Source: the human T2T-CHM13v2.0 reference genome, Homo sapiens. From it: a DNA stretch of 64,000 nucleotides. Every line of letters begins with the position of its first letter. The stretch's first letter is position 1. The notes under the pieces were generated by a model, which worked only from the letters and a program-made list of their open reading frames with translations, was not told the DNA's origin and did not search any database. Location of the stretch: the NCBI RefSeq assembly GCF_009914755.1, contig NC_060937.1. One strand, written 5' to 3'. A program made the translations under genes and the position numbers. This document shows, piece after piece, positions 36,401 through 40,192 of the stretch.

Positions 36401-36944
36401 TTGGTCTTAGCTTGTTGGGCTCCATGGGGGTGGGATTTGTTGAGCAAGACCATTTGGCTCCCTGGCTTCAGCCCCCTTTTTAGGGGAGTGAACAGTTGTG
36501 TTGCGGTGTTCCAGGCGCACTGTGGTATGAAAAAAACCTCCTGCAGCTAGCTCGGTGTCTGCCCAAATGGCCACCCAGTTTTGTGCTTAAAATCCAGGGT
36601 CCTGGTTGTATAGGCACCCAAGGGAATCTCCTGGTCTGTGGGTTGTGAAGATAGTGGAAAAACGTAGTATGTGGGCTGGAGAGCACCATCCCTAATGCCA
36701 CAGTCCCTCATGACTTCCTTTGTTTAGGAGGGGTAATGCCCTGACCCCTTGCACTTCCCGGGTGAGGTGATGCCTCATCCTGCTTCTGCTTGTCCTCCAT
36801 GGGCTGCACCCACTGTCTAACCATTCCCAGTGAGATGAACTGGGTACCTCAGTTGAAAATGCAGAAATCACCCATCATCTGTTTAGGTCTTGCTGGGAGC
36901 TGCACATTGGAGCTGTTCCTATTTGGCCATCTTGGCCTGGAATT
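30467..36944 (-). mobile_element. Full-length degraded LINE-1 (L1PA7-like)
   Basis: 3' UTR at left, ORF2/ORF1 fragments, 5' UTR; TSD GAAAATAGA(A/G)ATTT at 30453-30466 and 36945-36958. Confidence 0.95.
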
Positions 36945-37070
36945 GAAAATAGAGATTTCAAAGTCACCTTCTCTGGTAACAATCAAATAACAGTAAAATA
37001 ATAAGAAAACGATTCTTCTTACTGCTGCTCTCACCTCTCTCAAAATTTGACTATTTGAAAATCAAGACTT

Positions 37071-39381
37071 GGCTACTCTGTCTATTGAGTAGCCATTCTT
37101 TTATTCCTTTACTTTCCTAATAAATTTGCTTTCACTTTGTGGACTCACCCTGAATTCTTTCTTGTGTGAGATCTGAGAACCCTCTCTTGGGGTTCTCAGG
37201 GCCCAGAACAGAAAGGGATCAGGACCCCTTTCCTGTAACATCTTTCTGGTGACCACTGAAGAGACTATAGTATGGAAACCCCTAGCTTTTGGTAAGTGGT
37301 GAGGTCCAGTAACATGTTTCTTCTGGTGAAACATGGAAGGGACGATACTGAGGAGACTCCAATCCAAAGGAAATAGACTGCAGAACTGATCGGGGCTGAC
37401 TTTTTCTAGGTAAGACCTAGCACACGTGAAGTTAGATGCTGGAAAGAATCAGACCTTATCTGCACTTCTGTCTGCTGTCCTAGGCTCTACACCTAGCACA
37501 TAATTAAAATCCCAAACTTATTAAGGTTTTCACCAAAAGTAAAAGTCACTAAGAGTCAACACTGTAATATGAAATTGAGACTACTTAAGAAACAGTTTTA
37601 TATGTGAGTCAAGAAAACTTTTCTTTTGAGCTATTTACAGCTTTTAACAATTGAGTAACGTATACTCCTGTGAACAAAATTTGGACCATATTTGTTTCTC
37701 TCTACCTGATTTCTCCAAAATTTGAAAACTATTTGTGAGTATTCTTAACATATGGCAACATAGTTATTTGCATAAGTGCAATAAGAATCTGTTTTCTTTT
37801 GTAACAGGACACAATTGGAAAAACTGGTTATTTTACCAAGACTTTGACTGGAATGCTATGCTGTGCTTTAAGGAATCAAACTTGACTTTTAAAGCCAATA
37901 AAAGCCCCTTGGGGAACTGGCCTCATACTTTACCTATGCAGTCCCTGTAGAGGGTTTATGACCTGTGATAAGTAAAGAATGTCACTTTCTCACAGACCCA
38001 GGAGCCCCAAGTTATCTTGGGACCCCAAGAGGAGAGGAATTCACTCAACTCATAGGTATTTGAGGGTACAAACCCATGGTAGGCTTGGCTTAAAAAAAAG
38101 TCTTATCTGAGATTTCTTCTATGGAACAGAGTTCCATCAAAGCCAATTTAAAAAGAATCTATGTGAAAAATAATTATTCTTCCTGCACTTTATACAAATA
38201 ATCAGGCCAAGCATAATAATGCAAATCAGTCTTACCATGATTTGTCTTTAGTAAAAATGGGAAACAAGAGAGAAATATGTTACAAGAACTATGGTACACT
38301 TGTTACTAAATTTTAGTCTCATAAGTTATTTTTAAGTTTGTTTCTGCAATTTAGGCTAACCCTACTTATTCCTGTGAACCAACCACTGATCTCTTGACTG
38401 CTGCTCAGAAGAAACAAGAGGGATTGGGTAATGTAAAAATCTGGATCAATATTCTAATTTTGGGTACATTGGAATCAGCTAGCGACCCCATATCAGCTTG
38501 GTTCCACAGTTGCCCAGTTCATAGAACTGGAATTAGTTCTATGTAAATTAGTTTACTTGGAATAATTTTACTTATTGTGTTTTACTGTTGTTGTGGAATA
38601 AGTTGCTGCTGTGCTCTTTGTGTAGGAAGGCAGGACAAGCTTACTGAATATTTTCTTAAATTCAACATGTATTAATCTTCCAGGTATCACCTTTTGTTGG
38701 AACTGAAGAGTTATGAATGGCCCTTACCATACTGATGCTTTCTGACTGAGCTCCTCTCTACCCCAAATACAAGAGACACTCACAGTTAGGCAGGAATATC
38801 ATTATCCCTATTTAGCCTGAAGAAGTTACAGAAGATGGATCTTTATCCCTCTGCAACCCTTAGGATTAAGGGTTCTCTTATGAAAGGGAGGGGGGAAATG
38901 TCAGAGACGTTTGAACCAGAGCAACTTCATCTTGAATAGGAGCTGGGTAAAATGAGGCTAACACCTACTGGGCTATATTCCCAGATGGTTAAGGCATTCT
39001 AAGTCACAGGATGAGATAGGAGGTCAGTACAAGATACAGGTCACAAAGACCTTGCTGATAAAACAGATTGCAGTAAAGAAGATGGCCAAAACCCACAAAA
39101 ACCAAGATGGCGACAAGCGTGAACTCTGGTCGTCCTCACTGCTACACTCCCACCAGCACCGTGACAGTTTACAAATGCCATGACAATGTCCAGAAGTTAA
39201 CCTATATGGTCTAAAAAAGGGATGCATGAATAATCCACCCCTTGTTTAGCATATCATCAAGAAATAAACATAAAAATGGGGAACCAGCAACCCTTGGGGT
39301 TGCTCTGTCTATGGAGTAGCCATTCTTTTATTCCTTCACTTTCCTAATAAACTTGCTTTCACTTGAAAAAAAAAAAAAAGA
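37071..39381 (+). mobile_element. MER41A-type ERV1 processed retrocopy (R-U5, internal, U3-R, polyA)
   Basis: R-U5 37071-37240 ending TGTAACA; PBS-like TGGTGACCAC; polypurine tract 38882-38898; U3-R from 38899 (TGTCAGAGACGTTTGAACCAGAGCAAC); A14 at 39366-39379; 14-bp TSD. Confidence 0.88.
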
Positions 39382-40192
39382 GAAAATCAAGACTTTTCTA
39401 GATAACTTTTGAATTGAAGAGGAAATTGAAATTACAAATGATCCAGAAGACAGAAAATGAAAACACATTGTACCTTTATTATTAAAGAAGACAGATAAAA
39501 CAAGGATTTTAGCTTCATCTTAAGAAATTAGAAAAAAAAGTAACAAAGCAACTTACAGAGAGCTGAAATTAATAAAATGGAACTCTCTCCAAATGTGGAA
39601 GTTAAATGAGATGATTTCTTTAAAAAATCAATAAAAGAGAGAATAAATTCCTTGCAAGAAAGCCTGATTAATGTTGGTGGTGAGAGAAAAGAGGGTGAGA
39701 GAATGAGAATGAGAGAGAGAGAGACTGAGAATATATATTAGATTATGATACAAATGTGAGGGCACAACTACTGGCCCATGAGAAATCATAATTTAAGTCA
39801 CTAAAATTGACTAAAGAAGTTGAAAACTCGACTAGACCAATTAATTACCATGAAATAAGTTCAAAAAGGTATGAGGACCAGATGAATTTACTGTTGAATT
39901 CTGTCTAATTCTTACAGACCAGATAATTCCAATATTATATAAATGATCCTAGATCAAAGGAAATGAGGGAGGTATTCTCACTTCATTTTGTGAACTCAGT
40001 ATGATTTTAACATTAAAAATTGATAATGATATAGAGAAAACTATAGACTAATTTTATTTATTATGTATGCAAAAATTCCTAAAAAATTATTAATACATGT
40101 AATCCAGTAATTAAAAAACAACTAATAACTATGAGCAACTAGGGTTTAGTCAAAGTGTGCAAGCATAATAAAATATAAGGAATTATATTTTA

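What the first reader, a model, noticed from the sequence alone, without database searches (positions are those of the whole stretch)
37057..39395. Endogenous retrovirus RNA (MER41A) retrotransposed by LINE-1 machinery
Seen: the structure is that of a viral RNA, not a provirus. It begins at R (GGCTACTCTGTCTATTGAGTAGCC, no 5' U3), then U5 to 37240, a PBS-like site, ~1.66 kb non-coding internal sequence, a polypurine tract, and U3-R from 38899. It stops 14 nt after AATAAA (39346-39351) in A14, with no 3' U5. It is flanked by a perfect 14-bp TSD GAAAATCAAGACTT (37057-37070, 39382-39395) at a TT/GAAAA site. Known: integrase gives 4-6-bp TSDs and two full LTRs, whereas long TSDs, poly(A) and TT/AAAA-like sites mark L1 ORF2p TPRT; such processed copies are well described for HERV-W. 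Inference: MER41 transcripts were also L1 substrates, an alternative dispersal route for this regulatory LTR family. GTAAG donor-like motifs (~37292, ~37410) are retained, so the short interior looks deleted rather than spliced there.
Basis: partly seen in the sequence, partly recalled or inferred. Interest (0 to 1): 0.8.

Follow-up and report, generated by a model that had tools for sequence, protein, structure and literature searches.

The report
Retrocopy of a doubly spliced MER41 RNA
This is a dead DNA copy of a twice-spliced, polyadenylated RNA from an ancient MER41-type endogenous retrovirus, pasted into the genome by LINE-1 machinery; many more such copies of this family exist in the genome.

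Summary
The element starts at R (37071) with no 5' U3. It runs through U5, a PBS-like site, 1.66 kb of interior, a polypurine tract and U3-R. It ends 14 nt after AATAAA in A14, and a perfect 14-bp duplication flanks it.

LINE-1 retrotransposition of a retroviral RNA is well supported. One sub-inference is wrong: the short interior is spliced, not deleted. Compared with other genomic copies, two segments are missing. All four breakpoints lie at conserved GT/AG splice sites. The template was therefore a doubly spliced RNA of 335 + 199 + 1,761 nt.

The route is recurrent. A 30-nt "R end + A9" pattern hits 148 places against 0 for the reversed control. The two R-into-U5 patterns hit 1,496 and 194 places. 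Of 40 sampled hits, 22 are R-only copies of about 70 bp. Exact flanking repeats of 9 nt or more occur in 10 of 20 tested (including the window) against 3.4% of mismatched pairs.

L1 retrocopies are in print for HERV-W, HERV-H and HERV-K(HML-2), including a spliced one. I found none for MER41. The MER41A label could not be tested because no Dfam library was available.

The parts
37057..37070 (+). 5' target-site duplication GAAAATCAAGACTT
   Evidence: only 2 copies in the window, 0 expected by chance.
37071..37138 (+). 5' R, starting at the transcription start (GGCTACTC...). The first 24 nt form an 8-bp hairpin.
   Evidence: Independent retrocopies start at the same G-run (L023; L063, L064). Hairpin pairing is 96% over 33 R copies.
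37139..37240 (+). U5, ending in TGTAACA. It carries a private insertion of about 20 nt (37194-37215) that makes inverted repeat I1.
   Evidence: U5 of related LTRs; I1.
37247..37265 (+). Primer-binding-site-like sequence TGGTGACCACTGAAGAGAC
   Evidence: conserved in L021, L023, L054. The tRNA-Arg assignment is recalled and taken from papers on the related ERV-W; it was not tested here.
37241..37405 (+). Leader, the 3' part of exon 1. It holds two tandem copies of a unit of about 85 nt, each ending in a GGTAAGTGG-type donor; the first (37292) was not used.
37405..37406 (+). Splice junction 1 (exon 1 | exon 2). A segment of 1.5-3.2 kb present in unspliced copies is absent here.
   Evidence: Donor GACTTTGG|GTAAGT: GT present in 14 of 16 and in 3 of 3. 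Acceptor ...TTTACAG|CTAGG: AG present in 12 of 13.
37406..37604 (+). Exon 2 (199 nt)
   Evidence: genomic matches stop sharply at both ends..
37604..37607 (+). Splice junction 2 (exon 2 | exon 3). A segment of 0.89-1.30 kb present in unspliced copies is absent here.
   Evidence: Donor ..AG|GTGTGTAA: a GT within 8 nt in 30 of 30, the fuller motif in 20 of 30. Acceptor TTTTTCAGAG|TCAAG: 24 of 33.
37606..38898 (+). Interior part of exon 3, with no recognisable coding domain
   Evidence: 84-87% identity to 19 or more copies; no Pfam match.
38883..38898 (+). Polypurine tract AAAGGGAGGGGGGAAA
38899..39297 (+). U3, with a TATA-like ATAAAAAT at 39270-39277 and no TTCNNNGAA motif
   Evidence: The L054 5' LTR aligns from 38899.
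39298..39365 (+). 3' R, with AATAAA at 39346-39351 and the cleavage site at 39364/39365
39366..39381 (+). Poly(A) tail A14, followed by GA
39382..39395 (+). 3' target-site duplication GAAAATCAAGACTT

Best explanation
A provirus of the MER41 family was transcribed from the start of R in its 5' LTR. The RNA was spliced twice: leader donor to a 199-nt middle exon, then to a 3' exon holding the last 1.3 kb of the interior plus U3-R. It was cleaved and polyadenylated 14 nt after the AATAAA in the 3' R. LINE-1 ORF2p then nicked the genome at ...ATTT|GAAAATC, primed on the poly(A) tail and copied the whole 2.3-kb RNA. The result is R-U5-PBS-leader / exon 2 / exon 3-PPT-U3-R-A14 between 14-bp target duplications. 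Shown here: the anatomy, the missing segments, the splice consensus at the breakpoints, and other copies with the same RNA ends. Inferred: that L1 was the enzyme, and that the introns were removed at the RNA level. The copy has no promoter at its 5' end and no coding capacity. It is most likely an inert relic about as old as the family.
For: Anatomy and TSD.

RNA ends are reproducible. The same start (GG[C/T]T[G/A]CTC) abuts flanking DNA in L023 (16-bp TSD), in L063 (14-bp TSD) and in many copies. The same cleavage site followed by A-runs occurs in 148 places against 0 for the reversed control.

Splicing. Other copies carry 0.89-1.30 kb between window 37604 and 37606 and 1.5-3.2 kb between 37405 and 37406. 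Site counts: acceptor 1 AG 12 of 13; donor 2 GT 30 of 30; acceptor 2 CAGAG 24 of 33; donor 1 GT 14 of 16 and 3 of 3. Reading donor ...GAG|GT and acceptor ...CAGAG|TC reproduces junction 2 with no indel.

TSDs across the family. Exact flanking words of 9 nt or more occur in 10 of 20 copies (including the window) against 3.4% of 380 mismatched flank pairs. Most TSDs begin with an A-rich stretch.

Age. Mean identity to 19 copies is 85.5%, within their own range of 82.6-85.9%.
Against: Junction 1 is not letter-perfect. Exon 1 ends in ...GACTTTTT where 14 of 16 unspliced copies have GACTTTGG before the GT. L073 shows a related T-run variant, but the source copy was not found.

Junction 2 requires use of the second AG of CAGAG.

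The leader is only 73-81% identical to any other copy, so the parent lineage is poorly sampled.

The target is TT|GAAAA, not the textbook TT|AAAA, and GA lies between A14 and the TSD.

Only the 40 best-scoring candidates were scored per genome search, so a parental provirus with the same deletions could have been missed.

No primate outgroup was available for an empty-site test.
Confidence: 0.85

Rival explanations
1. L1 retrocopy of an unspliced RNA from a parental provirus that already lacked both segments. That parent could itself have formed from a packaged spliced RNA or by DNA deletion.
For: The end product would look identical. A retrovirus-style reintegration of a spliced HML-2 RNA is reported (PMC3590776, passage). 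Junction 1 is 2 nt off the common donor sequence.
Against: None of the other 39 places scored for a query spanning both junctions crosses either junction. Five start a few bases before the second junction (query 355-365) but do not continue into exon 2. All 16 leaders examined run on into the intron. Only 40 of 2,230 candidates were scored.
Confidence: 0.08
2. A full-length processed copy that lost the two segments by deletion after insertion.
For: Old insertions do accumulate deletions. L054 has an unrelated internal deletion.
Against: All four breakpoints fall at, or within 2 nt of, conserved GT/AG sites. Random deletions would not do this twice.
Confidence: 0.03
3. An ordinary integrase-made provirus whose outer LTR parts were later trimmed, with a chance repeat and an A-run.
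For: None beyond the presence of LTR-derived sequence at both ends.
Against: The trims would have to fall exactly at the U3/R and R/U5 borders used by dozens of independent copies. The 14-bp repeat has 0 chance expectation. Integrase makes short duplications (established knowledge).
Confidence: 0.01

Closest known systems
HERV-W processed pseudogenes (Pavlicek 2002, not seen; Grandi 2016 PMC5016936 and Grandi & Tramontano 2017 PMC5537654, passages)
   Same: The same architecture: 5' R-U5 ... U3-R 3', a poly(A) tail, a TT/AAAA-type site and long TSDs. The families are related: MER41 is placed in the HERVW9 supergroup (PMC4724089). A minority of HERV-W copies lack a 'pre-gag' intron (PMC6995185).
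   Different: A different ERV family. Here two introns are removed. The family also shows a large class of R-only copies. The reviews call HERV-W the 'sole' L1-mobilised HERV group; the data here do not fit that.
HERV-K(HML-2) 2q32.1 locus, a rec-like spliced mRNA retrotransposed by L1 (Schmitt 2013, PMC3590776, passages)
   Same: A multiply spliced retroviral mRNA copied by L1 machinery, with a poly(A) stretch and a 13-nt TSD.
   Different: It is a betaretrovirus-like family and a single reported locus, and it retains an ORF. The MER41 copy has no detectable coding capacity and belongs to a family with at least 148 poly(A)-ended copies.
Cellular processed pseudogenes (L1-mediated retrocopies)
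   Same: Intronless, with cap-to-poly(A) colinearity, a poly(A) tail, a TSD and frequent 5' truncation (L021, L022, L059-L062, L083, L090).
   Different: The template is a retroviral transcript with a terminal R repeat.

Membership tests
L1-mediated processed retrocopy | Colinear with a mature RNA, from transcription start to poly(A) site | tested here: met
   It starts at the R start shared by independent copies and ends at the shared cleavage site.
L1-mediated processed retrocopy | Introns removed | tested here: met
   Two segments bounded by conserved GT/AG sites are absent. Junction 1 is 2 nt off the common donor sequence.
L1-mediated processed retrocopy | 3' poly(A) tail | tested here: met
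   A14 at 39366-39379.
L1-mediated processed retrocopy | Target-site duplication of about 7-20 bp | tested here: met
   A perfect 14 bp.
L1-mediated processed retrocopy | TT/AAAA-like endonuclease site | tested here: inconclusive
   The site reads TTT|GAAAAT, one base off the consensus. The consensus itself is recalled and also quoted in PMC5016936.
Integrase-made provirus or solo LTR | Complete U3-R-U5 LTRs and a short (4-6 bp) duplication | tested here: not met
   No 5' U3, no 3' U5, and a 14-bp TSD.
MER41A LTR / MER41-int (Dfam/Repbase) | Best match to those consensus models | not testable with these tools
   No repeat library was available. Indirect support: thousands of related LTR copies (6,744 first-look candidates); no STAT1-type TTCNNNGAA motif, as a review states for MER41A (PMC9963469).
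MER41 / HERVW9-type gammaretrovirus-like ERV | PBS complementary to tRNA-Arg | not tested
   A PBS-like site is present and conserved. It was not compared with a tRNA sequence. tRNA-Arg use is stated for ERV-W in PMC6995185 and in bioRxiv 10.1101/2024.12.11.627920.

The most novel reading that the evidence does not exclude
MER41-family RNAs were frequent LINE-1 substrates, on a scale like HERV-W. At least 148 copies end in poly(A) at the R cleavage site. They come from genomic, 5'-truncated, doubly spliced and, most often, R-only RNAs of about 70 nt that run from the LTR start site to the LTR's own poly(A) site. This would overturn the statement that HERV-W is the only L1-mobilised HERV group. 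It would also give a DNA record of the family's start site, poly(A) site and splice sites, and would add a promoter-less 'solo-R' class of LTR fragments to genome annotation.
Probability: 0.6. Interest if true: 0.6.

Novelty: new member of a known kind. Interest (0 to 1): 0.5.

Why it matters
It documents a second large HERV family whose RNAs were copied by LINE-1. Recent reviews say this is unique to HERV-W. The retrocopies act as fossils of the RNA. They fix the transcription start, the poly(A) site and two intron pairs of an extinct virus family for which little is published. Copies longer than about 470 nt carry a whole U3, so this route spread MER41 regulatory sequence without integrase. 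R-only and U5-less fragments are probably annotated as truncated LTRs, which would distort counts and age estimates for a family widely used in studies of immune enhancers. The locus itself shows no sign of function.

Tried and rejected
- Coding remnants: 23 ORFs from L023 and the window gave no Pfam match above the curated cut-offs. My impression that the region near 38380-38675 looks like an envelope transmembrane remnant therefore stays unsupported.
- Rfam: no family at the gathering threshold in 36900-39550.
- Paralogous empty site: the upstream flank 36700-36943 is a high-copy repeat, but 36944-37070 and the downstream flank are unique, so no such test was possible.
- Subfamily test by the 43-bp MER41A/B difference: the only other LTR at hand (in L061) belongs to a more distant subtype, and the alignment was uninformative.
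- Parental provirus with the same junctions: none among the 40 scored places.
- Covariation in the R hairpin: the pairs are almost invariant, so it says little.
- Pavlicek 2002 could not be read. Whether it mentions other families is unknown to me.
- Not used: structure prediction, protein searches, complex prediction.

Full report
**1. Observation**

- GAAAATCAAGACTT occurs twice in the 64-kb window, at 37057-37070 and 39382-39395. None is expected in 100 dinucleotide-preserving shuffles (repeat D3).
- Directly inside the left copy the element begins with GGCTACTCTG.... This 67-68-nt stretch recurs at 39298-39365 (93%; 62 of 68).
- The left copy continues into U5 and ends with TGTAACA at 37240. 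Of 19 related copies, 15 end their 3' LTR this way, 3 end in poly(A), and 1 is interrupted there.
- A PBS-like TGGTGACCAC... follows at 37247.
- The right copy of R is preceded by a polypurine tract (38883-38898) and a U3 that starts with TGTCAG at 38899.
- The element stops 14 nt after AATAAA (39346-39351). A14 follows, then GA, then the right TSD.
- There is no U3 on the left and no U5 on the right.

**2. The interior is spliced, not deleted**

A search of the window's own assembly with the element gave many copies at 84-87% identity. All of them matched only from window 37606 onward. A local BLAST showed that in those copies the sequence matching 37436-37604 lies 0.89-1.30 kb upstream of the sequence matching 37606.

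Junction 2:
- At the left edge the unspliced copies read ...ACATGCAAG|GTGTGTAAAG.
- At the right edge they read ...TTTGTTTTGTTTTTCAGAG|TCAAGG.
- A GT lies within 8 nt of the edge in 30 of 30 copies, and the fuller GGT[GA]T[GA]T motif in 20 of 30.
- CAGAG is present in 24 of 33.
- The closest relative of exon 2 (L025/L040) has ...ATGCGAG|GT. The window has ...ATGTGAG followed directly by TCAAG.
- This is the exact product of that donor joined to the second AG of the acceptor.

Junction 1:
- A second search showed that 37406-37604 is a discrete 199-nt block with sharp ends in about 20 other copies.
- Upstream of it those copies read ...CTTGCCTGCTTTACAG|CTAGGTAAGG. An AG sits right at the boundary in 12 of 13.
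- The leader (37241-37405) matches other copies only up to 37403.
- There they continue with GG|GTAAGTGG. GT is present in 14 of 16 and in 3 of 3 larger loci.
- In full-length relatives, 1.5 kb (L054) to about 3.1 kb (L021, L023) separate this donor from exon 2.

The window element therefore consists of three exons:
- exon 1, 37071-37405 (R, U5, PBS, leader);
- exon 2, 37406-37604;
- exon 3, about 37605-39365 (interior, PPT, U3, R).

Weak points:
- Exon 1 ends in ...GACTTTTT where most copies have GACTTTGG. L073 shows a related T-run variant (GACTTTTG|GT), and the window's own first leader unit has TTTTGG.
- The true parent was not found.
- The leader is only 73-81% identical to any other copy.

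The motif at 37292 belongs to an upstream duplicate of the leader unit. The motif at 37410 lies 4 nt inside exon 2 in unspliced copies as well.

None of the other 39 scored places crosses either junction. Five start a few bases before the second junction (query 355-365) but do not continue into exon 2.

**3. The route is recurrent**

Of the 19 other interior-bearing copies, three end in an A-rich tail at the same CACTTTG site.
- L023 is a full-length unspliced copy. It starts at the same R start and is flanked by a 16-bp TSD, ATAAAACTGAATGCCT.
- L022 is 5'-truncated inside the first intron. It has a 13-bp TSD at AATT|AAAAGT.
- L021 is truncated at the end of U5 and has only a weak A/T-rich repeat.

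Genome-wide pattern counts, each with up to 3 mismatches and each with 0 hits for the reversed control:

| Pattern (30 nt) | Hits |
|---|---|
| last 21 nt of R + A9 | 148 |
| R running into U5, variant 1 | 1,496 |
| R running into U5, variant 2 | 194 |

So roughly 8% of R ends at this stringency are polyadenylated.

I examined 40 of the 148 hits.
- They were taken in list order, except L059 and L060, which I chose because one search had shown that they carry interior sequence.
- 22 are R-only: they begin within a few bases of the R start and end at the cleavage site, about 65-70 bp plus tail.
- 1 starts 12 nt upstream of R.
- 3 start inside R; 2 of these abut an Alu.
- 7 are truncated in U3 or the interior.
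- 2 begin at the U3 start.
- 5 run into U3 beyond the stretch I had fetched.

TSD control:
- Exact flanking words of 9 nt or more occur in 10 of 20 copies tested (19 hits plus the window).
- The same test gives 3.4% of 380 mismatched upstream/downstream pairs.
- In the last batch, such words were found in L096, L097, L104, L105, L108 and L112. The L112 word is low-complexity.
- No TSD was found in L059, L060, L061, L064, L082, L084, L090, L092 or L093, nor in several copies of the last batch.

**4. Mechanism**

The combination matches L1 target-primed reverse transcription: cap-to-poly(A) colinearity, intron loss, an A-tail, 13-16-bp TSDs that start A-rich, and frequent 5' truncation. It matches the published definition of HERV-W processed pseudogenes (PMC5016936, passage). 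L1 as the enzyme is inferred, not shown.

Mean identity of the window's 3' part to 19 copies is 85.5%, within their own range of 82.6-85.9%. The three other processed copies are similar. The event therefore dates to about the family's main period.

**5. Family**

MER41-int with MER41A/B/D/E/F/G LTRs is listed in the HERVW9 group together with HERV-W and HERV9 (PMC5753468; PMC4724089).
- In its favour: U3-R has no TTCNNNGAA motif, and a review states that the MER41A consensus lacks the STAT1 motif through a 43-bp deletion (PMC9963469).
- No Pfam domain was found in 23 ORFs of L023 and the window.
- No Rfam family matched.

**6. Literature**

- Grandi & Tramontano 2017 (abstract and introduction passages) call HERV-W the 'sole HERV group' mobilised by L1.
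- Grandi 2020 (passages) infer splicing of a pre-gag intron in a few HERV-W processed pseudogenes.
- Schmitt 2013 (passages) describe one rec-like spliced HML-2 mRNA retrotransposed by L1. They cite earlier HERV-H and HERV-W cases.
- Searches pairing MER41 with processed pseudogene, retrocopy, L1-mediated, or the U3-R/R-U5 hallmarks found no paper describing such copies for MER41.
- The library lacks most subscription journals, and Pavlicek 2002 was not readable.

**7. Verdict**

The splicing sub-inference is reversed. The kind is known; the family, the double splicing and the abundant R-only class appear undescribed. The locus lies in unique intergenic DNA (hub table) and shows no sign of function.

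Noticed in passing
L063, L064, L081, L082, L085-L088, L092-L096, L099, L102, L104-L109, L112 (other chromosomes of the same assembly): There are R-only retrocopies of about 65-70 bp running from the LTR start site to the LTR's own poly(A) site, followed by an A-tail. Many have 9-15-bp TSDs. They make up 22 of the 40 sampled poly(A)-ended hits. They could come from short LTR-initiated, LTR-terminated RNAs, or from reverse transcriptase switching between the two R repeats of a longer RNA.
   Followed up: partly
window 37149-37223 (insertion 37194-37215): The U5 of this copy carries a private insertion of about 20 nt. It is a partial inverted copy of the U5 sequence just upstream, and it creates a 34-nt, 74%-complementary inverted repeat (I1). 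It is absent from every related U5 shown.
   Followed up: partly
window 37071-37094 and 39298-39321: R begins with an 8-bp stem and 8-nt loop hairpin (GGCTACTC...GAGTAGCC). Pairing is 96% over 33 R copies against 17-43% for shifted registers. The pairs hardly vary, so there is no real covariation test.
   Followed up: partly
window 37234-37405; L054 5600-5870: The leader holds tandem copies of a unit of about 85 nt (PBS-like site plus a GGTAAGTGG donor-like end). The window has two units and L054 appears to have three.
   Followed up: no
L005, L015, L016, L018, L020 versus the other copies: The second intron comes in two size classes, about 0.89-0.98 kb and about 1.29-1.30 kb. The longer class is seen in five independent copies. 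It may be a subfamily difference or a shared insertion.
   Followed up: no
L094 (C1:202.86 Mb): An R-only retrocopy inserted, in the opposite orientation, into the R region of another LTR of the same family.
   Followed up: no
L007 3177-3424: A 3' LTR followed directly by a PBS and leader, suggesting tandem proviruses that share an LTR.
   Followed up: no
L084, L089: Two poly(A)-ended copies begin exactly at the U3 start. L089 has 38 nt of Alu-like sequence in front. They may be retrocopies of read-through RNAs that entered a solo LTR from the flank. Their TSDs are unclear.
   Followed up: no
window 36700-36943: A high-copy repeat (4,456 first-look candidates, 83-86% identity) ends at about 36943, 114 bp upstream of the insertion site. 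I did not identify the family.
   Followed up: no
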